IMG/VR virus record: IMGVR_UViG_3300046170_000524
Length of the DNA stretch: 64,000 nucleotides
From: a virus
Direction: 5' to 3' (one strand)
Positions 1-47,924 of the stretch are shown here, one piece after another. Position numbers and translations under genes: made by a program. Positions within the stretch are counted from its first letter, which is position 1. Every line of letters starts with the position of its first letter. The notes under the pieces are model-generated. The model did no database searches. It saw only the letters and a program-made list of their open reading frames with translations, and had not been told where the DNA came from.

Positions 1-713
1 CACTGGTTATTACCAAAAAAACACTGGCAACCATTACGGAAAAGTAAGAATAAACTCTACTTACGACAGTAGCTCAAATGCTGCTAGTTTAAAATTTTAC
101 ACTGCTACTGGGTGGTGCTAATTCAAGTAGATATGTTTTCGGGGTTGGATTCTGATGGCACAGCAAAATGGTGTATATGATTTAGAGGTTAGTGGTAATG
201 TAACAAAGAGTTCTGGAAATTTTAAGATTGATCATCCATTACCTGAGAAATCAGAAACTCATCACTTAGTTCATTCTTTTATTGAAGGCCCACAAGCTGA
301 CAATATCTATCGAGGTAAGGTTGAATTGGTAGCAGGTAAAGCTGAAGTAAATATTGATGCAGTATCTGGAATGACTGAAGGAACTTTTGTTGCACTCAAT
401 CGTGACATCCAAGTGTTTACATCTAATGAAAGTGACTGGGATGCCGTGCGCGGAAAAGTGGAAGGCAATAAAGTAATTATTGAATGCCAAAACACTGAGT
501 CTACCGCAACTGTCTCATGGTTAGTAATAGGTGAGAGGACAGGATGAGCATATGCTTAAGTCTAAGACTACAGATGAGAATGGTAAGCTTATTGTCGAGC
601 CACTTAAACCTGAGTCTGAGCCTGTGTACGAGGAGATAGAACCTGAAGAAGTAATTACAGAAGAACCAGTAACAGAGGAAGCGTCTGTCTCAATAGGAGA
701 AAGTAGTCTCTGA
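1..713 (+). CDS. Tail fibre protein, C-terminal part (5' truncated by window edge), with chaperone-like domain and acidic tail; ORFs 155..547 and 531..713 merged
   Basis: Motif FKIDHPL...HSFIEGPQADNIYRGKV...SGMTEGTF...WLVIGER(Q)DEHM...TDENGKLIVEP is typical of marine phage fibre C-termini. The frame is restored by removing one base each at ggg 110-112, gggg 141-144, aaaa 165-168 and gg 537-538. Confidence 0.7.
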
Positions 714-757
714 TTGAAACCCCTTGAGCAATAATTTATTAAATTAAAAAAAATAAT

Positions 758-3400
758 ATGAAAGATTTTACAGCAACAAACGCAGAATTTGAAAGTATAG
801 ATATATCTGAAAAGTTTCAGGTTAGTGAAAGTGGGGCGATTGGTGGTGTTATTCCTAGTGGGGTAAATGATATTATTAAGTGGGATGGAAGTCAATGGAT
901 CGCAGGAATTAATCCCGGAGGAAACGGTGGAGGCGGAGGAGGCGGAGGAGGATCTGGTGTTGCAGATCCATTTACAACCAATTTAATTAGCGGCCAATCT
1001 CTGCAAAATATTTCATTTAATCAAACATTAGATTCTGCGCCAAGTATTGCTACTGATTTAGAAATAGATGGAGATGGATCTATTATTCCATATACAATAT
1101 CTGGATTAAGTACTACTGGTTATACAGCTATATTTGCAGAAGAAATTCCAAATAATAATTATAAAATACATACGGTTTTTGGAGGGGGATCTTCGAGCGG
1201 AGGTGGCGAATTATCTGGAGAAGAATTAAGAGCAATAAATAAAACTATTGTTGATAGTCCAGTGGATGTTTTTGTGTATGATACCAGTCGTGACAGTGAT
1301 GGTGGCGCTTGGAGAAAGCGTACACAGAATACCAGTTGGTATAATGAGGAGTTGAATACCGCGACTAGGGGTGCTCGCCGCGAATTTCCCGCGGTTGCAG
1401 TGATTGTAGCTGAAGCTGATAAAGTAACCATTTATGATGGCGATGATCCAGATTTAAGTATGTGGATGGTGTTTGATATTGGGTCCGGAAAGATGATTTG
1501 GGCAACTCTACTTAGTTGTGTAAACTCATTAAATGCTAAGTTATCAATGGGTTCTCCAGGTTCTGGTTTTAGATATATTGATTTTATTTCAGATACAATG
1601 AGAGAATGGAGAACAGCTGGAGAGCGAGGGGTATCTGGTAATATATCTGAACGAAACGCTGGAGATTTAGCTCGCATAACTGGTTCTGCGGAAAATACTA
1701 TAGTAAATCAAACAATAAACGACGTCGCCATGACCGTACTACCAAATGCACCAATTGATGAAAATACTGGTTTACCGGTGCCCACAATTGCTGTGGCCAC
1801 CGATGGTGGTGTGAGTGTAATAAAGGATGATGGAACGGTGGTCAATTCCGATGAAACCAACAAGGTTCGAACAGTACATTTTAATAAAAATGAATTATTG
1901 ATTTCAACACTTGTTGATTTTGATAATGTTAGAATATATAGTTTTTCTAGTTCTATTGATAAACTTTATGAATATTGGGCTGGTAGTTCAGATGGATTTT
2001 GGCATTTGGCTAATGCTCACAACTCAACTTACAGTTCAATTTTTACAGAAAATACTTCTGCGAATATATTGGGTTTAACTAAATTTGATTTAGAGAAAAA
2101 CAAAAATGATAGTAGCATGTGCTATATAACAAGCAAATACAACACCGGTTGGATGCCTGGCGACATCAAACTTGCTGCATTGAGTGACACAACAGTGGAA
2201 ACAATTGGAACAGATAGTAGTGAATTGGTAACGAATGGCGATTTTTCAACAGATAGTGATTGGACGAAGGGAACTGGATGGTCAATTGTTGGTGGGATTG
2301 CTTCAAAGGTAAGCTCCGCAGACTCATCTAACCTTACTCAAGAGATTCATTGTTTGATTGGTCAAACATACGTGGTTAGTTGGGATATAACTAGCAGAGA
2401 TTCAAGTGTAGTAGGATTTTATACCCAAAGCGGCGGTAGTATAACTGCAGTTCAGAATTATTATGAATCAGTCGGCAGTTACAGCGAAACATTTACTGCT
2501 ACTTCAGAGTCTGTAACCATAGCTTTACGAGCTGGTAGCACTGCATTTTTATCAGTCGACAACATCAGTGTTCGTCCCGCTGAGGCAGATCGCAGTGTCA
2601 ACAATAAAGGATTACAAATTGTTGGTGAAATCAATAAAACACCCGTTGCAAGCGGCGCGGATCTTGTGGCATACAGTGGATTCAGTGGGAACAATTATTT
2701 GATGCAATCATATAATGCAGATTTGGATTTTGGTACAGGGGATTTTTATGTGATGGCATGGATTAAAGATTTTGCAATTAACGGCGACTATCAAAGAATT
2801 TTTGGTAGAGGTATTGATGGAAGTACTGGCTTTGAATGGGATTTATATTTTCATATATCAAGCCCGGAGCTTAGGCTTAGAACTTATTCTAATGGTGTTA
2901 GTAATGGAGATGTTTACTTAGATTATATAAGTAATATGAGTGTTGGTTCATGGAATCAAATTGTTTTACTAAGAAAGAGTGGAATGTTAAGCATGTATAT
3001 AAATGGAGTAAAAACAGAATATGGCGATCAAGCCTTTGATTATAATATGAGCAATCCTGGTGCTAGTTTGTATATAGGAAATAGATTTACGCCAAGCGAC
3101 AGCAATTCTTTTAATGGATCTATTGCACTAGCAAGAATCTCCAAGACCGCTCCAACACCCGAACAAATCGCCAGGATCTATCGCGATGAAAAAGTATTAT
3201 TTCAGGAAGGCGCGCAATCCACATTATATGGCACAAGCGATGCCGTGACTGCACTTGCATACGATGACAGCGAGCAACTACTACATGTTGGCACAGCCAG
3301 TGGTCGCAGTGATTTCCGCGGACTTGCTCGTGTAAACAATACAACCACCGCAATTTCAAACAGCATCAGCACAGCTGAAGGCACAATCATTCAAAACTAA
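758..3400 (+). CDS. Tail fibre/adhesin paralog A: N-terminal lectin-like module, poly-Gly linker, beta-propeller-like region, 1 CBM-like domain, LamG/ConA-like domain
   Basis: 880-aa ORF. ELVTNGDFS...DNISVR (CBM4/9-like); LDFGTGDFYVMAWIK...MYINGV...LYIGNR...FNGSIAL (LamG-like). Collinear with 3402..6290 and 8864..11659. Confidence 0.75.
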   Translation: MKDFTATNAEFESIDISEKFQVSESGAIGGVIPSGVNDIIKWDGSQWIAGINPGGNGGGGGGGGGSGVADPFTTNLISGQSLQNISFNQTLDSAPSIATDLEIDGDGSIIPYTISGLSTTGYTAIFAEEIPNNNYKIHTVFGGGSSSGGGELSGEELRAINKTIVDSPVDVFVYDTSRDSDGGAWRKRTQNTSWYNEELNTATRGARREFPAVAVIVAEADKVTIYDGDDPDLSMWMVFDIGSGKMIWATLLSCVNSLNAKLSMGSPGSGFRYIDFISDTMREWRTAGERGVSGNISERNAGDLARITGSAENTIVNQTINDVAMTVLPNAPIDENTGLPVPTIAVATDGGVSVIKDDGTVVNSDETNKVRTVHFNKNELLISTLVDFDNVRIYSFSSSIDKLYEYWAGSSDGFWHLANAHNSTYSSIFTENTSANILGLTKFDLEKNKNDSSMCYITSKYNTGWMPGDIKLAALSDTTVETIGTDSSELVTNGDFSTDSDWTKGTGWSIVGGIASKVSSADSSNLTQEIHCLIGQTYVVSWDITSRDSSVVGFYTQSGGSITAVQNYYESVGSYSETFTATSESVTIALRAGSTAFLSVDNISVRPAEADRSVNNKGLQIVGEINKTPVASGADLVAYSGFSGNNYLMQSYNADLDFGTGDFYVMAWIKDFAINGDYQRIFGRGIDGSTGFEWDLYFHISSPELRLRTYSNGVSNGDVYLDYISNMSVGSWNQIVLLRKSGMLSMYINGVKTEYGDQAFDYNMSNPGASLYIGNRFTPSDSNSFNGSIALARISKTAPTPEQIARIYRDEKVLFQEGAQSTLYGTSDAVTALAYDDSEQLLHVGTASGRSDFRGLARVNNTTTAISNSISTAEGTIIQN
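1262..1414 (+). repeat. Conserved block 1 of fibre paralogs (copies at 3612-3764 and 9080-9232)
   Basis: 153-nt block encoding VDVFVYDTSRDSDGG...ARREFPAVAVIVAE; about 6 mismatches between the B and C copies by eye. Confidence 0.9.
1716..1833 (+). repeat. Conserved block 2 of fibre paralogs (copy at 9558-9675; shorter, diverged copy near 4113-4193)
   Basis: 118 nt with a single mismatch between A and C. Confidence 0.9.
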
Positions 3401-3401
3401 T

Positions 3402-6290
3402 ATGAGCGAAGTACAAAAAAAACAAACAAATCTACGCGAAAAACTCGCCGAGCTTCTGGATTTTAGAAAGATGCGCGACCGCTTGAGTGGTCTGGGCTTG
3501 TATATTGGAAAGGATCGTACAAACACCGATGAAAATTTATTGGTTCGCGGTGGTGCCAATGTGGATGATCTACAGCTTGCTGAAATTTCTGCGGCCGTGG
3601 GTGGCACAGCAGTGGATGTGTTTGTGTATGATACTAGCCGTGATAGTGATGGTGGAAAGTGGCGCGAGCGTACACAGAATACCAGTTGGTATAATGAAGA
3701 ATTGAATACCGCGACTCGTGGTGCTCGCCGCGAATTTCCAGCAGTAGCAGTGATTGTGGCGGAAAGTGGAAATGTAAAAAAACTCAAGATATATGACGGT
3801 GACGATCCAGATCTACCTTTATGGATGTCTTTTGAGGCTAGTGGACTTGGTTCTGCTTTAGGTAGATCTTCAAACGCTATTTTTGGTATTAGCTCTGTTT
3901 GCGTGTTGAACGGACTGTTGTGCGTGACCGGTTTAGGTTCAGGCGGCAATATTGAAACTCTTTGTCAGATTTCTTTTATTGATGATGTATTTTGGCAATG
4001 GCATAAATATGGCTTTGGTGATGCAGGTATTAGCGAAAGAAATGAAGCTCATTCAGTAAGTACTCAAGAGTATCGAGGTAGGATAAATGAACCAATAAAT
4101 GTTGGCGGTTATAACGACGTCGCCATGACCGTACTACCAAACGCACCTGTTGATCCAGCGACCGGTTTGCCGACTCCCACAATTGCTGTGGCGTGCGGAG
4201 ATGGATCGAGCTCGGGGTTTTCAATTATTAATCATGATGGCACAGTAGCAAACAAATCGTATATAGAAAGTGCAAAAAGTCAAAGTGTATCATTTACTTC
4301 TGATAACAGATTGGTTGTTTCTCAAAAAAGAAATAGTAATGGTGATATTTGGGTGGCTATATACGACAATTTAACGACCAGCACAAGCACAACTGGTGTT
4401 ATTGTTCATGATCCAAACATATCTGTCAAGTATAATGATATTAATTATTTGAATTTACCCAATATTTTAAGTAGAACCACTGGTACTATTGGTGATAAAT
4501 ATATAATGTCTGAGAATGGACTAACTTTGATTGATGAAGGGGAGACTTATGTGGATGATGATGGTGCAAAAATTTACGGTATGGCTGCATACGCCACCTC
4601 CAAATACAACACCGGTTGGATGCCCGGTGACATCAAGCTTGCTGCATTGAGTGATAGTGTTGTGGAGAATGTGGGGGTGGATGAAAGTGAATTAGTTCCC
4701 AATGGAACTTTCGATTTAAATACAAATAACTGGAGCTCTACTAACTCAACCACATTGAGTGTCGATAATCAAAGATTAAAACTTCAAGGCATGGGAAGCT
4801 CTTATCCCACCGCATATACTTCGGTAAATGTTGTTGAAGGTATTGAGTACGAAGTTTCTGCGGAATATATCAGTAACTCTAACTCTTTTAGCGGAAGAAT
4901 TCGAGTTAGTTCATCTAGTCCATTGGGTGGAGATATAGTTAATGGAACTATTAAAAGTGCAGGAACTACTCACGTTAATAGGTTTACTGCACCATCTACA
5001 GGAAGCGTTTATATTGCATTAATGCTTCAGGACTCAGGTGGTAATAGTTCAGGAATATGGGATAATGTTTCTGTAAAGAGGAGCGGCGAACTAATAACAA
5101 ATGGCGATTTTTCAAATGGAACAACTGGGTGGAGTGGTTTATCTGGAGGTGTTTTATCCATAGACAATGAGCGATTAAAAATAGAAGAAACAACCAACGC
5201 TGTAGATGCTTATGCTGTTAATTCTAGCGTTATTCCAACTGTAGTTGGCAAAAAATATATAATAACATGGCAATTTATAAAAGGCACCAATACGGGATTT
5301 TCGGTGCGTTTTGGTAATGGCGGCGATCAGACTTCTGATTACAAGTCTAACACTGTCGGGGAGTATACTGATGATGGATATTATTCATTTGAATTTACCG
5401 CAACAGCAACTGAGCTCAATTTATCTTTTATTGTAAACGAGGCGAGCACTTACGGTTTTGTAGACAACGTCAGTGTTCGTCCCGTCGAAGCGGATCGTAG
5501 TGTTAACGACAATGGTTTGCAAATTTTTGGCGAAATAAACAAAACACCCGTTGCACCCGGCGCGGATCTTGTGGCATACAGTGGATTTAGTGAGAACAAT
5601 TATTTGGTTCAGCCATATAATGCGGATTTGGATTTCACTGACACAATGTCTATAATGCTTTGGGTCAAAGGTGTTACAGGTAATTTTAATCCGATCGATA
5701 GAGGAACAAGAGGTGTTGATCATTCATATGGCTTGTATTTAAAGGATGCAGGTGGTGATATAAGATTTTATTATAGTGTTGATGGAACAACCGATCTTCG
5801 GGTTGAAATTGCAGATGGCGCTTCGTTGATACAATCGGGTTGGCACCATGTAGCTGTTTGTACATCGGAAGGAAAAATTAAAATGTATGTCGATGGAAAA
5901 TTATTAAAAACCGCCGATCAGGTGGGCAATTTTTACTCACAATCAATCAATCAAAATGGACTTAGGGTTGGGAGAGGATCTATTAATTCTGCTAGTTGGG
6001 AAGATCACCTATTAGCTGCACTTCGCATTTCTGCCACTGCTCCAACCGCCGAACAAATCGCCAAAATCTACCGCGATGAAAAACCATTATTTCAACAAGG
6101 CGCGCAGGCCACACTATATGGCACAAGCGATGCCGTGACTGCACTTGCATACGATCAAAAAACCGAACTTCTACATGTTGGTACAAGTGCTGGTCGCAGC
6201 GACTTTTCTGGATTATCTAGAGTTCACCAAACAAATTCTCCAGTAACTACTTGTATTGACGCCGAAGACGGATTAATCGCAGAAAATTAA
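3402..6290 (+). CDS. Tail fibre/adhesin paralog B: beta-propeller-like region, 2 CBM-like domains, LamG-like domain
   Basis: 962-aa ORF with the same conserved blocks as paralogs A and C; N-terminus KQTNLREKL is shared with the S74 fibre genes. Confidence 0.75.
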   Translation: MSEVQKKQTNLREKLAELLDFRKMRDRLSGLGLYIGKDRTNTDENLLVRGGANVDDLQLAEISAAVGGTAVDVFVYDTSRDSDGGKWRERTQNTSWYNEELNTATRGARREFPAVAVIVAESGNVKKLKIYDGDDPDLPLWMSFEASGLGSALGRSSNAIFGISSVCVLNGLLCVTGLGSGGNIETLCQISFIDDVFWQWHKYGFGDAGISERNEAHSVSTQEYRGRINEPINVGGYNDVAMTVLPNAPVDPATGLPTPTIAVACGDGSSSGFSIINHDGTVANKSYIESAKSQSVSFTSDNRLVVSQKRNSNGDIWVAIYDNLTTSTSTTGVIVHDPNISVKYNDINYLNLPNILSRTTGTIGDKYIMSENGLTLIDEGETYVDDDGAKIYGMAAYATSKYNTGWMPGDIKLAALSDSVVENVGVDESELVPNGTFDLNTNNWSSTNSTTLSVDNQRLKLQGMGSSYPTAYTSVNVVEGIEYEVSAEYISNSNSFSGRIRVSSSSPLGGDIVNGTIKSAGTTHVNRFTAPSTGSVYIALMLQDSGGNSSGIWDNVSVKRSGELITNGDFSNGTTGWSGLSGGVLSIDNERLKIEETTNAVDAYAVNSSVIPTVVGKKYIITWQFIKGTNTGFSVRFGNGGDQTSDYKSNTVGEYTDDGYYSFEFTATATELNLSFIVNEASTYGFVDNVSVRPVEADRSVNDNGLQIFGEINKTPVAPGADLVAYSGFSENNYLVQPYNADLDFTDTMSIMLWVKGVTGNFNPIDRGTRGVDHSYGLYLKDAGGDIRFYYSVDGTTDLRVEIADGASLIQSGWHHVAVCTSEGKIKMYVDGKLLKTADQVGNFYSQSINQNGLRVGRGSINSASWEDHLLAALRISATAPTAEQIAKIYRDEKPLFQQGAQATLYGTSDAVTALAYDQKTELLHVGTSAGRSDFSGLSRVHQTNSPVTTCIDAEDGLIAEN

Positions 6291-6294
6291 TAAT

Positions 6295-8862
6295 ATGAAG
6301 ATTACAAAACAAAAAATAAATCTCCGCGAAAAACTAAAAATTTTAGACAATAAGGTAAACTTTGAAGAGGTTGTTCGCGGCCTTGGAGAATACGATGGGA
6401 ATGTAGGTATTGGTACTCCAAATCCTAGTAGGAAATTACAAGTTCATACAGATACTAATGAGGCACAGACTATTGCTTGCACTTCTACTTTGTCTGGGAT
6501 TGATGTTCAACATGCATCTATTGGTCATGGCACAAATAAAGATGGTAACCTTCAATTGGGTAATAGTTTTGGCAATTTAAAGGTTTATTTAAAATCTAAT
6601 GGCGATTCATATCTTAACGGAGGCAACGTAGGTATTGGTACTACGAATCCTTTTGCAAAACTACATTTACGAGGTAGCAAAACAGTTGCTTCGGCTGATG
6701 TTGAGGATCAATTAATTTTTCATAGAGGTTTTAACTCAGGGGTTCAAGACACACGCTTTGGTGCGTTAAGTTTTGGTACTAGTGGAAACCTAGGTCATGC
6801 TGGAAGGCTTGATTTTAAGCTTTCATCTCCATACGCAACTCCTGGAAGCACTCCTACGAATTTAGGAGATGTAACCACAGTAATGACTTTAGATGGAAGC
6901 GGCAACGTAGGTATTGGTACTACGGATCCTAGTGCTGAGCTTCATGTAAATAACGACTCAACTTCATCGACGATTAGGCTAACATCATCCTCAACTGAAA
7001 CCAATACAGATGGTGCATTTTTAAGGCTGGATAGCTCTGGAGACTTTATATTAAACAATAAAGACAGCGGAGTAACTAAATTTCAAGAGCAAGGCAGTGA
7101 TGTAATGATTATCGACTCCAACGGCAACGTAGGTATTGGTACTACGAGTCCTGATGGAAAGCTAGAAGTAAACTCTGATGATTTTGATACGCTTTACCTG
7201 AATAGAAATAGCAATACGGGTTCTGCTACAATAATTTTGAAGAATAATGGAGATTCAGGTGGTGCTGTGCAGTCAAAACATGGTGGCGGTTTAGGGTTTT
7301 TTAACCGAAACAACTCAGAAGCTCTTACTCCGACGATGGACATCGACCCCGACGGCAACGTAGGTATTGGTACTACGAATCCTGGTTCTTATAAATTGAA
7401 TGTAAATGGAACAGCTCGCGTTGTGCATTCTGTCAATCAGTCTCAAGAAGTTACTTCTGACGACCGTGTCAAACACAACGAACAACCAATCGTTGGCGCA
7501 CTTGAAACACTCGGCAAGATAACTCCCAAAAAGTACATCAAAACAACCGAAATGTACGATGCAAATCACGATTTCGAACTTGATGCCGACGGCAATCCAA
7601 TTGATGCAAATGGTGAACCAGTTGAGCATCGCATTGAAGCAGGTGTGATCGCGCAACAAGTATTGACTGTGGATGAATTGGCATTTGCGGTCAGCCCAGA
7701 AGATATAGACGAAGATGGAGTTGTAACAAGCCCACACGGACTCGATTACAATAGTTTATTCACTTATGCAATCGCCGCAATTCAGGAATTAAAGTCCGAA
7801 ATTGATTCTCTAAAGTCTCAGCTTAATCCTGATAATTCAAGCCCCACACAAGAGCCAGTTTCAGACGAAACCTCAACTGAAGAAGTTGTCGATCAACCTA
7901 TAGTAGACGAAACCTCAACTGAAGAAGTTGTCGATCAACCTATAGTAGACGAAACCTCAACTGAAGAAGTTGTCGATCAACCTATAGTAGACGAAACCTC
8001 AACTGAAGAAGTTGTCGATCAACCTATAGTAGACGAAACCTCAACTGAAGAAGTTGTCGATCAACCTATAGTAGACGAAACCTCAACTGAAGAAGTTGTC
8101 GATCAACCTATAGTAGACGAAACCTCAACTGAAGAAGTTGTCGATCAACCTATAGTAGACGAAACCTCAACTGAAGAAGTTGTCGATCAACCTATAGTAG
8201 ACGAAACCTCAACTGAAGAAGTTGTCGATCAACCTATAGTAGACGAAACCTCAACTGAAGAAGTTGTCGATCAACCTATAGTAGACGAAACCTCAACTGA
8301 AGAAGTTGTCGATCAACCTATAGTAGACGAAACCTCAACTGAAGAAGTTGTCGATCAACCTATAGTAGACGAAACCTCAACTGAAGAAGTTGTCGATCAA
8401 CCTATAGTAGACGAAACCTCAACTGAAGAAGTTGTCGATCAACCTATAGTAGACGAAACCTCAACTGAAGAAGTTGTCGATCAACCTATAGTAGACGAAA
8501 CCTCAACTGAAGAAGTTGTCGATCAACCTATAGTAGACGAAACCTCAACTGAAGAAGTTGTCGATCAACCTATAGTAGACGAAACCTCAACTGAAGAAGT
8601 TGTCGATCAACCTATAGTAGACGAAACCTCAACTGAAGAAGTTGTCGATCAACCTATAGTAGACGAAACCTCAACTGAAGAAGTTGTCGATCAACCTATA
8701 GTAGACGAAACCTCAACTGAAGAAGTTGTCGATCAACCTATAGTAGACGAAACCTCAACTGAAGAAGTTGTCGATCAACCTATAGTAGACGAAACCTCAA
8801 CTGAAGAAGTTGTCGATCAACCTATAGTAGACGAAAACCCAGAAGAAACAAACAACAATTAA
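6295..8862 (+). CDS. Tail fibre protein D with 5 GNVGIGT modules, peptidase S74 intramolecular chaperone and 23x acidic repeat tail
   Basis: GNVGIGT repeats; TSDDRVKHNE...EAGVIAQQV...LDYNSLFTYAIAAIQEL (S74 signature) from about 7456; then (DETSTEEVVDQPIV)n. Confidence 0.85.
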   Translation: MKITKQKINLREKLKILDNKVNFEEVVRGLGEYDGNVGIGTPNPSRKLQVHTDTNEAQTIACTSTLSGIDVQHASIGHGTNKDGNLQLGNSFGNLKVYLKSNGDSYLNGGNVGIGTTNPFAKLHLRGSKTVASADVEDQLIFHRGFNSGVQDTRFGALSFGTSGNLGHAGRLDFKLSSPYATPGSTPTNLGDVTTVMTLDGSGNVGIGTTDPSAELHVNNDSTSSTIRLTSSSTETNTDGAFLRLDSSGDFILNNKDSGVTKFQEQGSDVMIIDSNGNVGIGTTSPDGKLEVNSDDFDTLYLNRNSNTGSATIILKNNGDSGGAVQSKHGGGLGFFNRNNSEALTPTMDIDPDGNVGIGTTNPGSYKLNVNGTARVVHSVNQSQEVTSDDRVKHNEQPIVGALETLGKITPKKYIKTTEMYDANHDFELDADGNPIDANGEPVEHRIEAGVIAQQVLTVDELAFAVSPEDIDEDGVVTSPHGLDYNSLFTYAIAAIQELKSEIDSLKSQLNPDNSSPTQEPVSDETSTEEVVDQPIVDETSTEEVVDQPIVDETSTEEVVDQPIVDETSTEEVVDQPIVDETSTEEVVDQPIVDETSTEEVVDQPIVDETSTEEVVDQPIVDETSTEEVVDQPIVDETSTEEVVDQPIVDETSTEEVVDQPIVDETSTEEVVDQPIVDETSTEEVVDQPIVDETSTEEVVDQPIVDETSTEEVVDQPIVDETSTEEVVDQPIVDETSTEEVVDQPIVDETSTEEVVDQPIVDETSTEEVVDQPIVDETSTEEVVDQPIVDETSTEEVVDQPIVDETSTEEVVDQPIVDETSTEEVVDQPIVDETSTEEVVDQPIVDENPEETNNN
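6622..7377 (+). repeat. Dispersed 24-nt direct repeat ggcaacgtaggtattggtactacg
   Basis: Exact copies at 6622, 6901, 7123, 7354 and 12274; variants at 6397, 11764 and 11989. Confidence 0.9.
7864..8829 (+). repeat. Perfect 42-nt tandem repeat x23 (gacgaaacctcaactgaagaagttgtcgatcaacctatagta)
   Basis: 966 nt = 23 x 42, no visible substitutions, in frame, encodes DETSTEEVVDQPIV. Confidence 0.95.
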
Positions 8863-8863
8863 A

Positions 8864-11659
8864 ATGAAAAATTTCTCCGCAAAAACCGCAAACTTCCAAA
8901 ATTTAAAAGTTAAAGATGCTAATGTCATATCTGAGGTTAATCTTGGTACAGCTCCAAATCAAATACCATTGAACAAAGATTTAGGGTCGTTAGCTTATCA
9001 GGACGCGGTGAATCTTGATGATGTTAGCGCCGATATGGTTGAGTTGCGTGCAATTGCTGCTGAGATTAGCGATAGCGCAGTGGATGTGTTTGTGTATGAT
9101 ACTAGCCGTGATAGTGATGGTGGAAAGTGGCGCGAGCGTACACAACATACCAGTTGGTACAATGAAGAATTGAATACCGCGACTAGAGGTGCTCGCCGCG
9201 AATTTCCAGCAGTGGCAGTGATTGTGGCGGAAGTAAACAAGGTAACTATTTATGATGGTGATGATCCAGATATGGGCATGTGGATGGTATTTGAGGTAGA
9301 TGTTTCTCAAGGATTTAACATCCTTGCTTCTGGCTCTGATTTGGTTCTCAGTGTTGAATTTTTAAATGGAATTATTTGTGTAGGTATGGACTCAGGAGGA
9401 TTAGTTTCATGTAATTTTATTAGTGAGTCAATTAGGTATTATCGCTTAATCGAAAGTTCGTTTACAGGAGGTTATTATCAGGGGGTTATCGCTGATAGGA
9501 ATTCGCATAAAGGGTATCGGGGTAATTATAATGAAACTGCTCTTATTAACGATAACGTAAACGACGTCGCCATGACCGTACTACCAAATGCACCAATTGA
9601 TGAAAATACTGGTTTACCGGTGCCCACAATTGCTGTGGCCACCGATGGTGGTGTGAGTGTGATAAAGGATGATGGTAGTGTGGTTGATATTGTTTATACA
9701 AATCAAACTATAGAAAGTTTATGGTTAAAACAAAATCGTATTTGGATTGCTCCAGGAAATGGAAGCTTGATTGTTGGCGATATACCTAATACAGACAAAT
9801 CATCTGGCACGGCAAGCGGACTATCCTCTTTGATAAACGGATGGAATGCATTTGCTAATACAAATGAAACATTGTCAACACTTGGTTCAACAAATACTTT
9901 AACTCATGGAGGGGTATTTGGTTCAGATCAAGGGTTAAATTTAATTTATGAGGAAAAAAGTAACCCAGCAAGCTCATTGGTTGCATATACCACCTCCAAA
10001 TACAACACCGGTTGGATGCCCGGTGACATCAAGCTTGCTGCATTGAGTGACACAACAGTGGAAACAATTGGAACAGATAGTAGTGAATTGGTAACGAATG
10101 GCGATTTTTCAACAGATAGTGATTGGGAAAAGGGAACTGGATGGAGTATTTCCGGAGGAGTTGCATCTTGTGATGGTACTAATTATGCAACTTTAATTCA
10201 AGATAATGTGTTTTCTGTTTTTGGGGTTAAATATGTTATAACGTTTACTGTTTCATCATATACTAGTGGAGATATTGAGGCAAGGTGGTATGATACTGAT
10301 TGGCGAACAATAGGTAGTGCAGTTTCTGGAGATGGCACTTATACTTTTACTTTTACTTTAGGCGAAAATAGTAATGGCTCATTGACTTTTAGGTCAGGTT
10401 CGTTCGATGGATCTATCGACAACATGAGTGTTCGCGCCACAACAGAACTAATAACAAATGGCGATTTTTCAAATGGAGATGATGGTAGTTGGACTGACTA
10501 TAGTGCCGCAAATCTAACAACCAGTGAAATATCTATAGAGCAGTCTTATTTAGGGAATAATAGCTGGAAGTTTGTTTCATCACTTGCAAATTCTGGAATA
10601 AGTCAGAGCCACGGAGTTTACACTGAAAAGGGAAAAACATATACATTATCTGGTTATGTTTATAGTAGCACAGGAAAGCTTTGGTTAAGATGGAGAAATG
10701 GAAATGATGGTGGTTATATTGTGGATAATTATGAGCTTGTTTCTGGCACTCCAAACACTTGGCTTGCGTTTTCAGTTACCGCCAAAGAAACTAGTAGTGG
10801 TTCGTTAGGTGGAATTAGACTTGTCGCGAATGCAGCTGGAACATTTTATGTTGACGGATTGAGCATTCGTCCCGCCGAGGAAGATCGATCTGTTAATGAC
10901 AATGGTTTGCAAATCGTTGGCGAAATACAAAAAACACCTGTTGCGCCCGGCGCGGATCTTGTGGCATACAGTGGATTCAGCGCGAACGATTATTTGGTTC
11001 AGCCATATAATGCGGATCTTGATTTTGGCACAGGGGATTTTTGTGTGATGGGGTGGTTTAAACAATCACCAACCACAAATTTTCATAATTATCTTTCCCG
11101 AGGAGGTCGTATAAATGTGTACGTTGATGCAGCCACGTCCCTATTGAATTTTAGAGTGACTGATGGCACGATTTTTATGAATTGTTTGTCTACTAGTGTT
11201 ATTGATAATGATACATGGACATTTTTTGTTGGAGTTAAATCTGATGGAACAACATACAACTATATCAATGGAAAACTGGAGCAAACAGCTAATTATAGAC
11301 AAGTTGGTTCTTTAGATGGTGAATTTATAACTCATATCGGACGTTCTCATGATCCTAGTGATCCTAGACCTGCTGATACATTGGCTCTCTGGCGCATCTC
11401 TGCCACTGCTCCAACACCCGAACAAATTGCCAAAATCTACCGCGATGAAAAACCATTATTTCAACAAGGCGCGCAGGCCACACTATATGGCACAAGCGAT
11501 GCCGTGACTGCACTTGCATACGATCAAAAAACCGAACTATTACATGTTGGCACAGCCAGTGGTCGCAGCGACTTTTCTGGATTACGCAGAATCAACAACA
11601 CAACAACCGCCATCACCACATCAATCAGCGCCCATAACAATCTAATCGCAGAACAATGA
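8864..11659 (+). CDS. Tail fibre/adhesin paralog C: beta-propeller-like region, 2 CBM-like domains, LamG-like domain
   Basis: 931-aa ORF collinear with A and B; nucleotide mosaic of A-like and B-like tracts. Confidence 0.75.
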   Translation: MKNFSAKTANFQNLKVKDANVISEVNLGTAPNQIPLNKDLGSLAYQDAVNLDDVSADMVELRAIAAEISDSAVDVFVYDTSRDSDGGKWRERTQHTSWYNEELNTATRGARREFPAVAVIVAEVNKVTIYDGDDPDMGMWMVFEVDVSQGFNILASGSDLVLSVEFLNGIICVGMDSGGLVSCNFISESIRYYRLIESSFTGGYYQGVIADRNSHKGYRGNYNETALINDNVNDVAMTVLPNAPIDENTGLPVPTIAVATDGGVSVIKDDGSVVDIVYTNQTIESLWLKQNRIWIAPGNGSLIVGDIPNTDKSSGTASGLSSLINGWNAFANTNETLSTLGSTNTLTHGGVFGSDQGLNLIYEEKSNPASSLVAYTTSKYNTGWMPGDIKLAALSDTTVETIGTDSSELVTNGDFSTDSDWEKGTGWSISGGVASCDGTNYATLIQDNVFSVFGVKYVITFTVSSYTSGDIEARWYDTDWRTIGSAVSGDGTYTFTFTLGENSNGSLTFRSGSFDGSIDNMSVRATTELITNGDFSNGDDGSWTDYSAANLTTSEISIEQSYLGNNSWKFVSSLANSGISQSHGVYTEKGKTYTLSGYVYSSTGKLWLRWRNGNDGGYIVDNYELVSGTPNTWLAFSVTAKETSSGSLGGIRLVANAAGTFYVDGLSIRPAEEDRSVNDNGLQIVGEIQKTPVAPGADLVAYSGFSANDYLVQPYNADLDFGTGDFCVMGWFKQSPTTNFHNYLSRGGRINVYVDAATSLLNFRVTDGTIFMNCLSTSVIDNDTWTFFVGVKSDGTTYNYINGKLEQTANYRQVGSLDGEFITHIGRSHDPSDPRPADTLALWRISATAPTPEQIAKIYRDEKPLFQQGAQATLYGTSDAVTALAYDQKTELLHVGTASGRSDFSGLRRINNTTTAITTSISAHNNLIAEQ

Positions 11660-12873
11660 CAGTAAGAATAAATAAACAAAAAATAAATCTCCGCGAAAAA
11701 CTCGCTGGGGTAGAAGAAAAGGTAAACTTTGAAGAGGTTATTCGCGGCCTTGGAGAGTACGATGGGAATGTAGGTATTGGTACTACGAATCCTAGTAGTA
11801 TGTTACATATATCAGGCGCATCTCCTGTTATAACATTAACCGATACGAATACAAATGCTGATAGTAGTATTTCGGCAGATTCAGGCAAGGGGAGCTTGTT
11901 TATAAATGCGGATATTAATAACGAGGTAACTGATTCAGCTATATTGTTGAACGTAGACGGAGCCGAAAAAATGCGCGTCGACTCTAACGGCAATGTCGGT
12001 ATTGGTACTACGAGTCCTAATATTAGCCAAGGAGCCCTAGGAAGTACTATCTTAACTATTTCCGCGAGCGCTAGTGATAATACTAATAAATCGAGTGTTT
12101 TAGAGTTTAGAGGCACTAGAAACTCTGATGATCTTGTCGTATCATATATTCGGTCATTTAATAATTCAGGGACTAGACCAATCACTGATATTCAATCAAT
12201 CAGGGGGGCAGATGATGAGGGGAAATTATTGTTTCGTACAAGTGACCAAGATGCGATGTTCATCGACTCCGACGGCAACGTAGGTATTGGTACTACGAGT
12301 CCTGGTGTGAAGTTAGACGTTCGTGGTGGAGATGATACTTATGTTGCTAAATTTACTTCAACCTATACAGATCCAGGATCTGCTAACTATAAGGGAATAA
12401 AAATTCAAGCAGGCATGGGTAACTCAGGTACAGCTGGAAATAATAAATGGATAGAGTTTTATAATGGTAACGGTTCCACTCTTATAGGTGGTATACAAAA
12501 TACCAGTAATACAACCGTTGCATTTTTTAGTGGATCTGATCGTAGGATCAAAAAAAATATCAATGATACCTCAATCAAGGGCATTGATTCAATTAAAGCT
12601 TTAAAATTGAGAAGTTGGGATTGGAATTCAACAGAGCCAATGACTTCTGTTGATATTGGTCTTGTTGCTGACGAACTTGAAGAGGTTTATCCAGAATTGA
12701 TATCTAGGCAAAAAATAGACGGCTGGGAACATTGCATTGGTGAAGGGGAAGAAGATTTAAAAACGATTCCAACTGAATCTAAAATTACTCTTACTTTGAT
12801 AAAAGCCGTCCAAGAACAACAACAAATAATCGAAGACTTGAAATCCAGACTTGAAACTCTCGAGCAACAATAA
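11656..12873 (+). CDS. Tail fibre protein E with 3 GNVGIGT modules and peptidase S74 chaperone
   Basis: GSDRRIKKNI...IGLVADELEEVYPELI...LIKAVQEQQQIIEDLKSRLETLE. Its 5' end matches gene D (66 nt with 2 mismatches: 6352-6417 vs 11719-11784). Confidence 0.85.
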   Translation: MTVRINKQKINLREKLAGVEEKVNFEEVIRGLGEYDGNVGIGTTNPSSMLHISGASPVITLTDTNTNADSSISADSGKGSLFINADINNEVTDSAILLNVDGAEKMRVDSNGNVGIGTTSPNISQGALGSTILTISASASDNTNKSSVLEFRGTRNSDDLVVSYIRSFNNSGTRPITDIQSIRGADDEGKLLFRTSDQDAMFIDSDGNVGIGTTSPGVKLDVRGGDDTYVAKFTSTYTDPGSANYKGIKIQAGMGNSGTAGNNKWIEFYNGNGSTLIGGIQNTSNTTVAFFSGSDRRIKKNINDTSIKGIDSIKALKLRSWDWNSTEPMTSVDIGLVADELEEVYPELISRQKIDGWEHCIGEGEEDLKTIPTESKITLTLIKAVQEQQQIIEDLKSRLETLEQQ

Positions 12874-12876
12874 AAA

Positions 12877-14736
12877 ATGAACTATCCACAAATCAAACCA
12901 AGTTTAAACCTCGATTTCTCAAACACGAAAACGCTCGATCCGCGCATCAATTTTCGCCGCGGCACACCTGGCGCATATTATGATGGAAAAACATATGCAA
13001 AAGCAGAAGAGAATTTAATTAGTCATAGTGAGGATTTTAGTCAAGCTGGAACCTCTTTTGGGGATTGGGACTCAAGAAATGTTAATACAACAACTGACAG
13101 TACAGATGAATTTTTAGCTCCAAATGGAGAGCAAACTGCATGGAAGTTATCAGATTCAACTTCAAATAGTTCGAACCATTCTCTGTTTCAACTAACATAT
13201 GTGACCGATTCATCACAAGAAGTGATTACTAGTTCTATTTTTGCGAAAGCTGGCGACTCAAATAGATATCTACAGCTTTTATTTGGTGTCGATGATACTG
13301 ATTATGGGCTTCCTTTTGCTAATTTTGATTTATTTGAAGGAACAATCACTAGAAATGAAAAAACAATAAATGCTTCAATGACGGATGCTGGTAATGGTTG
13401 GTATAGGTGTTCTATTACTATTTTTACAACAACAATTTCTGGAACGTCGATAAATCCTGTGTTTTACATGATTGATGATCCGCTGGCAAATAGAGATCAA
13501 CATTATGTTGGAGATGGATCTTCTGGTTTGTACATCTGGGGCGCGCAGCTTGAACAACGCGATGCAGCCACAGCATACACACCCACAAATGGTGCCCCCG
13601 TAACAAAATATCAACCACAACTAATGTTCGCCTCGCCAGATCAACCGCGATTTGATCATGATGTGTTGACTGGTGAAAGCAAAGGATTGTTGATTGAAGA
13701 AAGTAGAACAAATTTGATTGAATATAGTCAAGATTTTGATAATGTGGCTTGGACAGAGTCGCGTTCGTTTTTTTCTCTAAATAAAATAATCGCGCCTGAC
13801 GGAACATTAACTGGTAGAGAGTTCATCGAAAATACAGAGTTGGGTGGTCATTATGTTCGTTCTACATTTTCAGTACAAAGTGGTAATTTAACCTTTTCTG
13901 TGTACGCGAAAAAAGCAAACGGATCACGTTATATACAATTAAGACCTTATGGACTTGGAAATGGAATAGCATATGCAAATTTTGATGTAACCAATGGTGT
14001 TGTTGTTGAGAATGGAACAGGAGGGTCGGAATTTGTTTCTGCTAAAATTATTGATGTTGGAAATGGATGGTATCGCTGTATCATGACTGCAAATTATTCG
14101 ACATCACCTACAGGTGCATTATTTGGATTGTCTAATACCGCAGTAGAAATTCCTTATATTACTGGTGATAATTACAGCGGAATTTATATCTGGGGTGCAC
14201 AAGTAGAGGCAGGTTCTTTTGCATCCAGCTACATCAAAACATCAGGCGCGAGTGCCACACGAAGCGCCGATGATGCCAGCATAACAGGTGAAAATTTTAG
14301 TAGTTGGTATAGACAAGATGAGGGTAGTATTTATAGTGAGGCAAGTACGTCTGATTTTCGTAGTTCTTATCCTAGGTTTATGATTAATGACGGAACTGCT
14401 AATAATAGAATTGTAACATCTTTTTTTGGTCAACAAGGATTGCGCGTTCAAAGTAATGGTAATGATTATATTAATGTAAGTAATGCAGTTTCTTCAGATA
14501 ATCGAAATTATCATAAGAGAGCAATTGCTTTAAAAAAAGATTCCTTTTCTTTTTATACTGGTGGAGAAAGTATATTGAGTGATTCCGCGGGTGAAATGCC
14601 AATAAGCGTTAATACTTTTGCTTTTTATAATAATCTTGCGGCAGATGGAGCGGATTACTTGAATGGCCATATCAAAAAACTATCCTACTACCCCCAACGC
14701 CTAACAAACGAACAATTACAACAACTCACAAAATGA
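12877..14736 (+). CDS. Tail fibre-associated protein with two CBM-like repeats and a C-terminal LamG-like domain
   Basis: Duplicated ENLI.YS.DF...DAGNGWYRC...GIYIWGAQ.E module; ends NGHIKKLSYYPQRLTNEQLQQLT, a typical LamG-like terminus in phage proteins. Confidence 0.7.
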   Translation: MNYPQIKPSLNLDFSNTKTLDPRINFRRGTPGAYYDGKTYAKAEENLISHSEDFSQAGTSFGDWDSRNVNTTTDSTDEFLAPNGEQTAWKLSDSTSNSSNHSLFQLTYVTDSSQEVITSSIFAKAGDSNRYLQLLFGVDDTDYGLPFANFDLFEGTITRNEKTINASMTDAGNGWYRCSITIFTTTISGTSINPVFYMIDDPLANRDQHYVGDGSSGLYIWGAQLEQRDAATAYTPTNGAPVTKYQPQLMFASPDQPRFDHDVLTGESKGLLIEESRTNLIEYSQDFDNVAWTESRSFFSLNKIIAPDGTLTGREFIENTELGGHYVRSTFSVQSGNLTFSVYAKKANGSRYIQLRPYGLGNGIAYANFDVTNGVVVENGTGGSEFVSAKIIDVGNGWYRCIMTANYSTSPTGALFGLSNTAVEIPYITGDNYSGIYIWGAQVEAGSFASSYIKTSGASATRSADDASITGENFSSWYRQDEGSIYSEASTSDFRSSYPRFMINDGTANNRIVTSFFGQQGLRVQSNGNDYINVSNAVSSDNRNYHKRAIALKKDSFSFYTGGESILSDSAGEMPISVNTFAFYNNLAADGADYLNGHIKKLSYYPQRLTNEQLQQLTK

Positions 14737-15701
14737 TCTACTATTTAAAAACCGCGAATCGAGAAGAATTATATGCTGCGTTAGTTTCAGCTGATACCGC
14801 ACGTGAAATCGAAAACGAAGACGGCAAAAAGGTTTATGCTTTCGTTGAAGGTGCAGAGTTTGATGAAATTGGTGATATTATTGCACCACTTAAAAAGTTT
14901 GTTCGTGATGAAAATGGTGAGATTGTTTTCGAGACCCGCGAGGAACTCGTCGCAGAGGCTGTACAAGAGGTTTTATGGACTGAAAGTGACGGACTGCCAG
15001 AGGGAGTATTAATCGGTGACATTAAGGTAGCTTACGAGCCTGCAAAGTATGAAATGCAAGAGGTTGAAGCTGAGGTTGTCGAGGAGTTGTGGGCTGAAGA
15101 AGATGAGCTTCCCGAAGGAGTAAATGTTGGTGACGTTAAAGTTGAGGGTAAACCTGCGGTCGCCGAAGAGGTTTTAATTTCAGAAGAAGTTGCTCAAGTT
15201 CTATGGACATCTAATGATGTACAATTACCAGAGGGTGCAGAACTTGGATCTGTTAAACAAGCAGCTAAACCTGCAGAATACAAAACAGTAACCACCGACC
15301 GCCCAGAAACAGAAATTGTATATGAAGAAGTTGATGGCGAAAATGTTGCTGTCACTGTACCCCTAAAGATGTTATCTCTTGGGGATATCAAAACCCCCAA
15401 AAAAGAACAAGAGCTTGAAAAAATTCTGATTCAGGAAGCAGTTGAGGAAGTGCTTTGGGAAGAGGGCGAAGAGCTTCCAGAAGGTACTGAAGTTGGCGAC
15501 GTCAAAATTGTTGGCCAAGAAGCAGTATACGAAACAAAAGTCGTACAAGCTGCTGTACCCGCAGAATATTATACTGAAGAGGAAGTCGCCGAATCGGGCG
15601 ATGCATATCATGCAAATCTTCGCGGTGTCCCTGGAGAGTTAGCAAAAGATCTACCTTGTATTTGTGCGCCAGGCAATCCAGTACGGGTTTGGTGGAGTTA
15701 A
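14733..15701 (+). CDS. Acidic protein, putative fibre assembly/partner protein with four ~33-aa internal repeats
   Basis: Ends YHANLRG...LP...PGNPVRVW, a motif of small genes that follow LamG fibre genes; repeats EVLW.E.D.LPEG...GDVK...PA.YE. Confidence 0.45.
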   Translation: MIYYLKTANREELYAALVSADTAREIENEDGKKVYAFVEGAEFDEIGDIIAPLKKFVRDENGEIVFETREELVAEAVQEVLWTESDGLPEGVLIGDIKVAYEPAKYEMQEVEAEVVEELWAEEDELPEGVNVGDVKVEGKPAVAEEVLISEEVAQVLWTSNDVQLPEGAELGSVKQAAKPAEYKTVTTDRPETEIVYEEVDGENVAVTVPLKMLSLGDIKTPKKEQELEKILIQEAVEEVLWEEGEELPEGTEVGDVKIVGQEAVYETKVVQAAVPAEYYTEEEVAESGDAYHANLRGVPGELAKDLPCICAPGNPVRVWWS

Positions 15702-15729
15702 TTTATTTTATATAATTTACATTATAGCG

Positions 15730-15735
15730 GTGTAA
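15730..15735 (+). promoter_or_regulatory. GTGTAA motif, candidate phage late promoter
   Basis: 9 nt upstream of ATG 15745; the same motif and spacing occur at 4 other operon starts. Confidence 0.55.
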
Positions 15736-15744
15736 TTTTATTTG

Positions 15745-47582: not shown

Positions 47583-47924
47583 TTACACTTTAATTTCATA
47601 AAAACAAAAACAATCTGTTTTCAGACTATATATTAAAAATGAAATACCTAAACTCAATGAATTCTCTATATCCGAAGTGGAAGGTTTTTCGGAAATATTT
47701 AAGTGAGAATGAAATATACAGTAAATATTATCCATCACCAGATAAGCTGGGTTTATAACAAAAGTTTTCTTAGGGCTAGCACTTAAATTATCAAGCTTAA
47801 TAAAATCACTAACCTCAAGAGTATTTTTGTCATATAAAAATAACCCACAAGACTCTTGATGATTATTTTCTATAGAAAATTGCTTGGCCTCTTCCAGTAA
47901 TTTCTCTGGAATTTTATCTTTCAA
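47583..47924 (-). CDS. Tail assembly protein K-like (JAB/MPN domain only)
   Basis: ESCGL...IFHSH...PS.SD JAMM motif; lies between L and I; no NlpC/P60 half. Confidence 0.8.
   Translation of the reverse strand: MKDKIPEKLLEEAKQFSIENNHQESCGLFLYDKNTLEVSDFIKLDNLSASPKKTFVINPAYLVMDNIYCIFHSHLNISEKPSTSDIENSLSLGISFLIYSLKTDCFCFYEIKV

What the first reader, a model, noticed from the sequence alone, without database searches (positions are those of the whole stretch)
758..11659. Three fibre paralogs are nucleotide mosaics of one another: a cassette-exchange receptor-binding array
Seen: genes A (758-3400), B (3402-6290) and C (8864-11659) alternate near-identical DNA blocks with barely alignable intervals, and the identity switches partner inside a block. 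C matches B exactly over 61 nt (9990-10050 = 4594-4654), then matches A exactly over an overlapping 93 nt (10034-10126 = 2171-2263). At the 3' end C matches B over 110 nt (11429-11538 = 6060-6169), then A over 28 nt (11541-11568 = 3282-3309). Block 2 is A-like (118 nt, 1 mismatch) and block 1 is B-like. Synonymous sites are identical within these tracts. Inference: recent or continuing intragenomic gene conversion or recombination uses the constant blocks as crossover anchors to swap propeller, CBM and LamG cassettes. This would diversify host range without an invertase or a DGR reverse transcriptase.
Basis: partly seen in the sequence, partly recalled or inferred. Interest (0 to 1): 0.82.

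Follow-up and report, generated by a model that had tools for sequence, protein, structure and literature searches.

The report
Recombining mosaic phage tail-fibre paralogs
Three neighbouring tail-fibre-like genes of an uncultured marine phage share five conserved stretches at which recombination has swapped the variable sugar-binding parts between gene copies and between strains; this is a clear natural example of a way of changing host recognition already known from T4-like phages.

Summary
All four exact tracts exist as stated, and further ones were found (C=A 103 nt, C=B 68 nt). Gene C is 100% identical in nucleotides on four independently assembled metagenome contigs, so it is not an assembly artefact.

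A, B and C belong to a large unnamed family of viral metagenome proteins: N-terminal tag, propeller-like region, one or two CBMs, LamG. Five blocks keep the same order in every full-length member of about 40 examined. Against distant phages the blocks are conserved mainly at protein level. On top of that, C carries synonymous-identical tracts of A or B, with partner switches inside blocks (permutation p<5e-5). A and B show no such exchange.

Two sister strains about 97% identical (L001, L019) show cassettes in other gene positions:
- A's block1-to-block2 segment sits, nearly identical, in L019's C-position gene, with the crossover inside block 1.
- C's second CBM sits in L001's B-position gene.

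Best reading: ordinary homologous, partly ectopic, recombination at conserved motifs, as in T-even gp37/gp38. Not shown: that exchange is intragenomic, continuing or programmed, or that it changes host range. This is a new member of a known kind, of moderate interest. An untested earlier scan note reports a second such gene pair elsewhere in this genome.

The parts
758..3400 (+). Gene A, 880 aa: long N-terminal extension, propeller-like region, one CBM-like domain, LamG
   Evidence: ORF; Laminin_G_3 52.8 bits against cut-off 27.6; exact copy on JGI contig L056
3402..6290 (+). Gene B, 962 aa: type-2 N-terminal tag (KQKxNLREKL-like), two CBM-like domains, LamG
   Evidence: exact copy on L056
6295..8862 (+). 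Gene D: S74-chaperone fibre between B and C, with a perfect 42-nt x23 repeat at 7863-8836 (context)
8864..11659 (+). Gene C, 931 aa: the mosaic hub, with type-1 N-terminal tag, two CBMs and LamG
   Evidence: 0 nucleotide differences over 2796 nt on four independent contigs L052-L055
11656..12873 (+). Gene E: S74-chaperone fibre after C. The B-D and C-E junctions are alike (context)
   Evidence: (D2, D10)
1247..1466 (+). Block 1 in A
   Evidence: family-wide conserved columns; block HMM
1718..1835 (+). Block 2 in A
2129..2192 (+). Block 3 in A
2570..2750 (+). Block 4 in A
3134..3362 (+). Block 5 in A
3597..3825 (+). Block 1 in B
4113..4242 (+). Block 2 in B, the divergent copy (about 70% nucleotide identity to all others)
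4596..4659 (+). Block 3 in B
5475..5652 (+). Block 4 in B
6024..6252 (+). Block 5 in B
9065..9284 (+). Block 1 in C: B-like core, including 9077-9144 exact to B 3609-3676, and A-like 3' end
9560..9677 (+). Block 2 in C. The A-identical tract is 9558-9660 = A 1716-1818 (103 nt exact)
9990..10126 (+). Block 3 of C plus the start of the first CBM: B-identical 9990-10050, then A-identical 10034-10126, with the partner switch in the 17-nt overlap
10445..10477 (+). Border motif of C's second CBM (ELITNGDFSNG), exact to B 5088-5120
10865..11045 (+). Block 4 in C
11393..11621 (+). Block 5 in C: 11429-11538 exact to B 6060-6169, 11541-11568 exact to A 3282-3309
1427..1818 (+). Conversion-like tract in A (end of block 1, interval 1-2, most of block 2). 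It is shared with the C-position gene of strain L019 (2 adjacent differences in 392 nt) and is replaced in A's orthologue in strain L001
10407..11056 (+). Second-CBM cassette of C, found at 98.5% in the B-position gene of strain L001 (0 differences over 10507-10864)

Best explanation
A, B and C are tandem paralogs of a modular, probably receptor-binding, tail-fibre-like protein of an uncultured marine tailed phage. Its layout is an N-terminal attachment tag, a beta-propeller-like region, one or two CBM4/22-like jelly rolls, a LamG/concanavalin-like domain and a conserved C-terminal part. Five stretches of 64-230 nt are held constant across the whole family by selection on the protein. Because they stay 80-99% identical in DNA, they act as homology patches for general homologous recombination. 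Crossovers or heteroduplex tracts that begin and end in these blocks replace the variable segments between them. This happens between allelic genes of co-infecting strains and, ectopically, between paralogs at different positions in the array. In the window this has left C with short tracts identical to A or to B. In sister strains whole cassettes sit in other gene positions. The likely outcome is a combinatorial repertoire of sugar-binding modules spread over several fibres per virion. Shown: the mosaic structure, crossovers inside blocks, cassette movement between gene positions and strains, and the domain folds. Inferred: the recombination machinery, receptor binding and any effect on host range.
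For: Exact tracts and clustered partner switching. Saturated intervals against low-dS blocks. Two layers of conservation: the same-codon fraction at identical residues is 0.57-0.66 against distant phages (0.79 for block 2), but 0.86-0.95 for the window's A-C or B-C pair in blocks 1, 2, 3 and 5, with A-B at 0.64-0.70. All five blocks occur in the same order in every full-length member of about 40 metagenome members. Strain comparisons: L001 is syntenic at 97-98% except for replaced cassettes, with differences piled up in the blocks beside them and none over 1775-3370. L019 is syntenic downstream at 98%, yet its C-position gene holds A's interval 1-2 at 100% over 249 nt, with the switch inside block 1. 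C's second CBM lies in L001's B-position gene. Tract T3: C=A=L001a, while C differs from L019 at 40 of 72 sites. Tract T4: C differs by at most 1 of 111 sites from B, and B=L001b, while C differs from L019 at 11 of 111 sites. This suggests A-to-C and B-to-C transfer. Not an artefact: gene C is identical on four independently assembled contigs. Unitigs of four runs from four studies match C's cassettes with 0 differences and break at the shared tracts. Twenty runs from 19 studies hold the stretch. Folds: CBM4/16/22 at Z about 15 and LamG/pentraxin at Z 16-20; propeller-like by the Atlas model, TM 0.49-0.57. Phage tail context. The precedent for recombination at conserved adhesin motifs is described in PMC3157838.
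Against: No recombinase was identified in the window, and the rest of the genome is not held. Breakpoints at block edges are partly a tautology, because alignability ends where conservation ends. Only the identity switches inside blocks are independent evidence. Block 2 is unusually conserved at synonymous sites across distant phages (0.79), which plain protein-level selection does not explain. Receptor binding and host range are inferred from domain types and gene position only. The host is unknown.
Confidence: 0.8

Rival explanations
1. A dedicated, continuing intragenomic gene-conversion system. The paralogs of one genome (three here, perhaps five) serve as a cassette library. They convert one another often enough to create host-range variants within a single phage population, as in pilE/pilS or vlsE antigenic variation.
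For: C shares tracts with zero synonymous differences with both A and B of its own genome. Cassettes changed gene position between strains about 97% identical. Within-genome type1-type2 pairs share somewhat longer exact block tracts than between-genome pairs (233 vs 169 nt, p=0.015). An earlier scan note reports a second pair of the family elsewhere in the genome (untested).
Against: No cassette is duplicated within the window, as copy-paste conversion would sometimes produce. A and B show no exchange. Equally long exact tracts occur between genes of different genomes. Gene C is invariant across four samples. No within-sample alternative linkage could be seen, because unitigs cannot bridge the tracts. 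No dedicated enzyme or signal sequence was found.
Confidence: 0.13
2. No recombination: the shared tracts reflect only strong purifying selection on conserved protein motifs in old paralogs.
For: The blocks are conserved in protein sequence across the whole family, and against distant phages their synonymous sites are near background.
Against: Exact tracts of 61-110 nt include all synonymous sites, while A-B in the same blocks is at background. The partner switches inside blocks (p<5e-5). Cassettes sit at other positions in sister strains.
Confidence: 0.02
3. Assembly or polishing artefact: the tracts arise from collapse or cross-polishing of paralogs, or from chimeric metagenome contigs.
For: Metagenome assemblies can mis-join at repeats longer than k. 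Unitigs of the four laid runs do break at the tracts. The linkage across 10020-10096 was not seen directly in the pieces listed.
Against: Gene C is nucleotide-identical over 2796 nt in four separately assembled JGI samples, and A plus B in another contig. C-specific unitigs run exactly 30 nt into each tract, as expected for true repeats at k=31, and depth rises 2.5-4 fold in the blocks. L019's block 1 differs by 10-15% from both A and C of the window, so L019 is not a chimera of a window-like genome. The B-to-A switch lies in a 17-nt overlap, too short for a de Bruijn mis-join.
Confidence: 0.03

Closest known systems
T-even phage distal tail-fibre and adhesin genes (gp37/gp38): recombination at conserved motifs (His boxes, glycine-rich motifs) swaps specificity segments. 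Tetart et al. 1996 and 1998, and Trojet et al. 2011 (PMC3157838)
   Same: Conserved motifs alternate with hypervariable segments in host-recognition genes. Natural and laboratory chimeras have junctions in or near the conserved motifs. General homologous recombination is used, with no site-specific enzyme. The result is a population-wide library of interchangeable modules.
   Different: The protein family and folds are unrelated (propeller-like, CBM and LamG rather than a beta-helical fibre plus gp38). Here five anchors divide a gene of about 2.8 kb. Exchange is documented between tandem paralogs at different positions in the array as well as between alleles. No experimental crosses or host-range data exist.
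Multi-RBP phages with branched tailspike or fibre sets (CBA120 TSP1-4, Klebsiella phages with many depolymerases), which evolve by exchange of modules behind conserved N-terminal anchors
   Same: Several receptor-binding proteins are encoded in tandem. Conserved anchoring parts combine with exchangeable distal domains. CBA120 TSP and Kp7 fibre domains appear among the structural matches to the CBM region (Z 13-15).
   Different: In those phages the conserved part is mainly the N-terminal anchor, and whole C-terminal enzymes are swapped (own knowledge). Here several internal anchors allow exchange of sub-domain segments, including parts of one propeller-like region.
Invertase-driven fibre switching (Mu Gin, P1 Cin, p15B Min shufflon) and diversity-generating retroelements
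   Same: The outcome is alternative receptor-binding ends from one locus.
   Different: There are no inverted crossover sites. All genes lie on one strand. No invertase or reverse transcriptase was found in the ORFs tested. Tract differences are not adenine-specific. Not a member.

Membership tests
Mosaic tail-fibre/adhesin genes shuffled by homologous recombination at conserved motifs (T-even gp37/gp38 type; a functional class, not a sequence family) | The genes encode virion host-recognition proteins | tested here: inconclusive
   They lie in a tail-fibre operon beside S74-chaperone fibres and tail genes, with PHROG tail-fibre hits and CBM and LamG folds. There is no virion proteome or binding assay.
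Mosaic tail-fibre/adhesin genes shuffled by homologous recombination at conserved motifs (T-even gp37/gp38 type; a functional class, not a sequence family) | Conserved motifs alternate with hypervariable segments | tested here: met
   Five blocks are conserved in the same order in every full-length member of about 40 members, and the intervals are saturated.
Mosaic tail-fibre/adhesin genes shuffled by homologous recombination at conserved motifs (T-even gp37/gp38 type; a functional class, not a sequence family) | Recombination junctions of natural variants lie in or next to the conserved motifs | tested here: met
   Identity switches lie inside block 1 (L019, A about 1426/1427), block 2, block 3 (C 10034-10050) and block 5. 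Strain differences pile up in the blocks flanking replaced cassettes.
Mosaic tail-fibre/adhesin genes shuffled by homologous recombination at conserved motifs (T-even gp37/gp38 type; a functional class, not a sequence family) | Chimeras have changed host specificity | not testable with these tools
   No isolate and no known host.
Sequence homology to T-even gp37/gp38 | Detectable sequence or fold similarity | tested here: inconclusive
   No gp37/gp38 family appears among the Pfam, PHROG or PDB profile hits or in the fold-search lists. Absence from such lists does not exclude a relationship.
Pfam Laminin_G_3 (PF13385) | Score above the gathering cut-off of 27.6 bits | tested here: met
   A 52.8, B 52.0 and C 44.7 bits. 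Structural matches to pentraxin and PAPP-A LamG at Z 16-17.
Pfam CBM_4_9 (PF02018) | Score above the gathering cut-off of 25.9 bits | tested here: inconclusive
   C reaches 26.0 bits (just above), B 18.0 (below), A has no hit. The fold is supported for C: CBM4 1gui and 4bj0 at Z 15.6-15.8 with rmsd 2.3-2.4, and CBM16/22 at Z 13-15.
Diversity-generating retroelement | Reverse transcriptase plus a template/variable repeat pair with adenine-specific differences | tested here: not met
   No RT was found in the window ORFs tested. The repeats are exact or differ at all base types. The rest of the genome was not searchable.
Invertase shufflon (Gin/Cin/Min type) | Site-specific recombinase and inverted crossover sites flanking invertible fibre segments | tested here: not met
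   Only one weak inverted pair (28 nt, 71% complementary) in 1-13000. All the fibre genes are co-directional. No recombinase hit.

The most novel reading that the evidence does not exclude
The array, with the second pair reported elsewhere in the genome, works as an evolved cassette library. Ectopic gene conversion among five or more paralogs would then continually create new fibre combinations within a single phage population. This would be a recombination-based analogue of bacterial and protozoan antigenic variation, operating on a virus's receptor-binding proteins, with the blocks (especially block 2, which is conserved at synonymous sites) selected at DNA level as conversion anchors.
Probability: 0.13. 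Interest if true: 0.8.

Novelty: new member of a known kind. Interest (0 to 1): 0.45.

Why it matters
This is a clean, strain-resolved natural record of how an abundant marine phage lineage rebuilds its probable receptor-binding proteins. The lineage is held by 20 seawater runs from 19 studies. Individual events are visible to within a few nucleotides, for example a 392-nt tract that moved between gene positions. The protein family is large (8,524 representative clusters at E<=1e-30, though that count may include proteins matching only the LamG or CBM part) and carries no family name in the sources checked. The five anchors define natural splice points that could guide chimera design for binding studies. 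The principle itself is already known, so the value lies in the example and the family, not in a new mechanism.

Tried and rejected
- Megablast of 1-16000 against cultured phage genomes found no match. tblastn of A gave only a 28% LamG hit in a Synechococcus phage. So there is no cultured relative and no host.
- The window's own assembly is not held. The nearest record, G001, is a 17.8-kb fragment with no match to the region.
Only 8840-13000 was laid. Logan unitigs (k=31) cannot bridge the tracts, so neither within-sample alternative linkages nor the C-specific B-to-A junction could be read from the listed pieces. The 'joints' in that output are paralog unitigs, not deletions.
- The first AF2 model, from 31 sequences, was poor (pLDDT 59.5). 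The second, from 117 sequences, reached 69.5 but left block 3 and the N-terminus below 50. The idea that block 3 supplies a strand to the LamG domain (alignment range 381..869) is therefore only a hint.
- The propeller was not recovered convincingly by the PDB fold searches: GH43 and sialidase rows had rmsd 10-30. Support comes only from the Atlas model.
- No single-strand annealing protein, recombinase, RT or invertase was recognised in the window ORFs tested.
- Literature searches for gene conversion or concerted evolution among phage fibre paralogs returned nothing specific.
- Counting 'breakpoints at block edges' as a statistic was rejected as partly circular.
Full report
**1. The observation**

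A list of maximal exact matches adds to this:
- C-A: 9558-9660 = 1716-1818 (103 nt). The '118 nt, 1 mismatch' claim for block 2 holds for 9558-9675.
- C-B: 9077-9144 = 3609-3676 (68 nt) and 10445-10477 = 5088-5120 (33 nt).
- A-B: nothing longer than 41 nt.

A codon alignment shows five islands of 70-99% nucleotide identity, separated by intervals at 30-50% identity. Nei-Gojobori estimates give dS 1.2 to over 2 and dN about 1 in the intervals, and dS 0.18-1.0 in the blocks.

**2. More than chance, and more than conservation**

Each variable site in the blocks was labelled by which two genes agree. The labels are strongly clustered: 62 changes of label against 143 +/- 7 expected, p<5e-5. The result holds when labels are permuted only within each block.
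- The longest concordant runs are 36 sites for A-C and 18 for B-C (both p<5e-5).
- The longest run for A-B is 3 sites, which is not significant.
- C is therefore the mosaic partner of both A and B, and A and B do not exchange with each other.

Rate variation cannot produce a change of nearest relative inside a block. The switch from B-like to A-like at C 10034-10050 is an example.

**3. Not an artefact**

- The exact protein C is encoded on four JGI contigs from four samples. The nucleotide sequence of the gene has 0 differences over 2796 nt in all four. A plus B are identical on a fifth contig.
- Twenty seawater runs from 19 studies hold at least 57% of the sampled words of the stretch.
- In four runs from four studies, unitigs match C's cassettes without a difference.
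- Those unitigs stop exactly 30 nt inside each shared tract, and depth rises 2.5-4 fold in the blocks. This is the behaviour of true repeats at k=31.

**4. What the genes are**

- Pfam finds Laminin_G_3 in all three genes, and CBM_4_9 just above its cut-off in C. PHROGs gives tail-fibre and virion-protein hits. The neighbours D and E are S74-chaperone fibres and F is a tail protein. Elsewhere the window has a PHROG tail-sheath hit, tape-measure and tail-tip genes.
- An AF2 model built on 117 relatives (pLDDT 69.5) has two CBM4/16/22-like jelly rolls (residues about 404-527 and 526-671; Z about 15, rmsd 1.9-2.6). It also has a LamG/pentraxin-like domain (about 698-870; Z 16-20).
- The ESM Atlas's own model of this exact protein (pTM 0.78) resembles Reg_prop and WD40 propellers over residues 60-400 (TM 0.49-0.57). 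The 'propeller' label is thus moderately supported.
- Blocks 1-3 lie in that region. Intervals 1-2 and 2-3 are therefore parts of one domain rather than separate domains.
- A profile search of 1.84 billion representatives finds 8,524 clusters at E<=1e-30. That count may include proteins matching only the LamG or CBM part. The best 150 all score above 845 bits over most of the profile. None of the ten looked up has a name beyond 'hypothetical protein'. No cultured phage has a close relative.

**5. Two layers of similarity**

The five blocks occur in the same order in every full-length member of about 40 metagenome members examined.

The measure used is the fraction of identical residues that also use the same codon.

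| Comparison | Blocks | Outside blocks |
|---|---|---|
| Window genes vs distant phages | 0.57-0.66 (block 2: 0.79) | 0.55 |
| Window A-C or B-C (blocks 1, 2, 3, 5) | 0.86-0.95 | not compared |
| Window A-B | 0.64-0.70 | not compared |

- Background divergence in neighbouring genes is similar, with a same-codon fraction of 0.53-0.73 and dS of 0.65-1.9.
- The blocks are therefore old and kept by selection on the protein.
- The C-A and C-B tracts are a recent overlay on that old similarity.

**6. Direct evidence of cassette movement**

Two sister strains were found.

L001 (an IMG/VR contig) is syntenic with A-B-D at 97-98% identity.
- It lacks A's interval 1-2 (window 1478-1715).
- Its B-position gene keeps B's N-terminus and 3' end, but the interior differs. 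That interior includes window C 10407-11056 at 98.5%, with 0 differences over 10507-10864.
- Between the window and L001 there is no difference at all from 1775 to 3370. The differences pile up in the blocks that flank the replaced cassettes: 1441-1475, 1762-1774, 3635-3803 and 6029-6038.

L019 is syntenic with the end of D, C, E, F, G and beyond, at 96-98% identity.
- Its C-position gene has C's N-terminus with no difference until 9003.
- It is C-like through most of block 1. It then becomes identical to window A from 1427 to 1818, apart from two adjacent private changes.
- It has a B-like block 3 (96.6%), an A-like CBM plus block 4 (89%) and a C-like block 5 (92%).
- Its block 1 differs by 10-15% from both A and C of the window, so it is not a chimera assembled from a window-like genome.

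In tract T3, C=A=L001a, while C differs from L019 at 40 of 72 sites. In tract T4, C differs by at most 1 of 111 sites from B, B=L001b, and C differs from L019 at 11 of 111 sites. The likely direction is therefore A to C and B to C.

Strains L053 and L054 carry the exact gene C. They diverge from the window right after the conserved N-terminal tag of E (11711) and rejoin at 14161. The same principle thus extends to the neighbouring fibres.

**7. Exchange within a genome or between genomes**

- Tandem pairs of a type-1 and a type-2 gene are common in relatives (L001, L021, L023).
- Within-genome type1-type2 pairs share somewhat longer exact block tracts than between-genome pairs. The mean summed length is 233 nt against 169 nt, one-sided p=0.015, with n=5 against 40 and non-independent pairs.
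- Tracts of 95-133 nt also occur between genes of different genomes.
- No cassette is duplicated within the window.

The data show ectopic exchange, meaning a change of gene position. They cannot say whether it happened within one genome or between co-infecting relatives, and they say nothing about its rate today.

**8. Mechanism**

- There are no inverted repeats of note, and all the fibre genes run in one direction.
- No invertase, reverse transcriptase or recombinase was recognised in the ORFs tested. The rest of the genome is not held.
- The simplest mechanism is general homologous recombination, by host or phage enzymes, acting on 64-230-nt patches of 80-99% identity. Short conversion-like patches of 9-30 nt, such as B 6182-6190, are consistent with heteroduplex repair. 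This step is inferred.

**9. Comparison with what is known**

The closest precedent is the T-even distal fibre and adhesin locus. [quoted passage not shown] The present case works the same way, but it is not a sequence relative. It differs in three respects: several internal anchors, exchange documented between tandem paralogs, and a new and very large family. It fails the defining features of DGRs and of invertase shufflons.

**10. Verdict**

It overreaches on 'intragenomic', 'continuing', 'three mosaics of one another' and on novelty. This is a new member of a known kind, with interest 0.45.

An earlier scan note (e1-5811945) reports a second tandem pair of the same family about 124 kb beyond the window in the same genome. 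That could not be tested here.

Noticed in passing
window 7863-8836 (gene D): There are 23 perfect copies of a 42-nt unit (a 14-aa acidic repeat) after the S74 chaperone domain. The repeat is also present in strains L001 (93%) and L019. Contigs of other assemblies (L001, L052, L056) end or begin in it, so the copy number is uncertain in short-read assemblies.
   Followed up: partly
window 3402-3470, 6295-6440, 11656-11810: B, D and E share an N-terminal KQKxNLREKL-type tag. Strains L053 and L054 carry the exact gene C but diverge from the window immediately after this tag in E (11711) and rejoin at 14161. The tag therefore also behaves as a crossover anchor.
   Followed up: partly
window 1775-3370 vs L001 9560-11146: There are zero differences over 1,596 nt between two strains that differ by about 3% in the flanks. 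This points to a very recent transfer or sweep of most of gene A.
   Followed up: partly
window 12877-14736 (gene F) vs L019: F is itself a mosaic between strains: 12802-13752 at 96%, 14182-18781 at 98%, and the stretch between them replaced. It is only 79% identical in protein overall.
   Followed up: no
window 9560-9677 and the block 2 copies in relatives: Block 2 keeps 88-98% nucleotide identity, and a same-codon fraction of 0.79, even against distant phages. This is well above the other blocks and the background. B's copy is the lone outlier at about 70%. This is unexplained; it could be a frequent exchange point or a constraint at DNA level.
   Followed up: partly
window 6373-7400 and 11740-12320: A motif of about 24 nt (GNVGIGTT) recurs in D and E. 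In all four metagenome runs many different sequences continue from it (loose ends at 11793, 12018 and 12306), so many other fibres in the sea share it.
   Followed up: no
window 23082-25667, 42815-45625, 47914-48993: A PHROG tail-sheath hit coexists with lambda-like tail-tip genes (Phage_tail_L and Phage-tail_3). This is an unusual combination worth checking.
   Followed up: no
same genome, about 124 kb beyond the window end: An earlier scan note reports another tandem pair of this family with the same pattern of blocks and intervals. The genome would then hold at least five paralogs and exceed about 190 kb.
   Followed up: no
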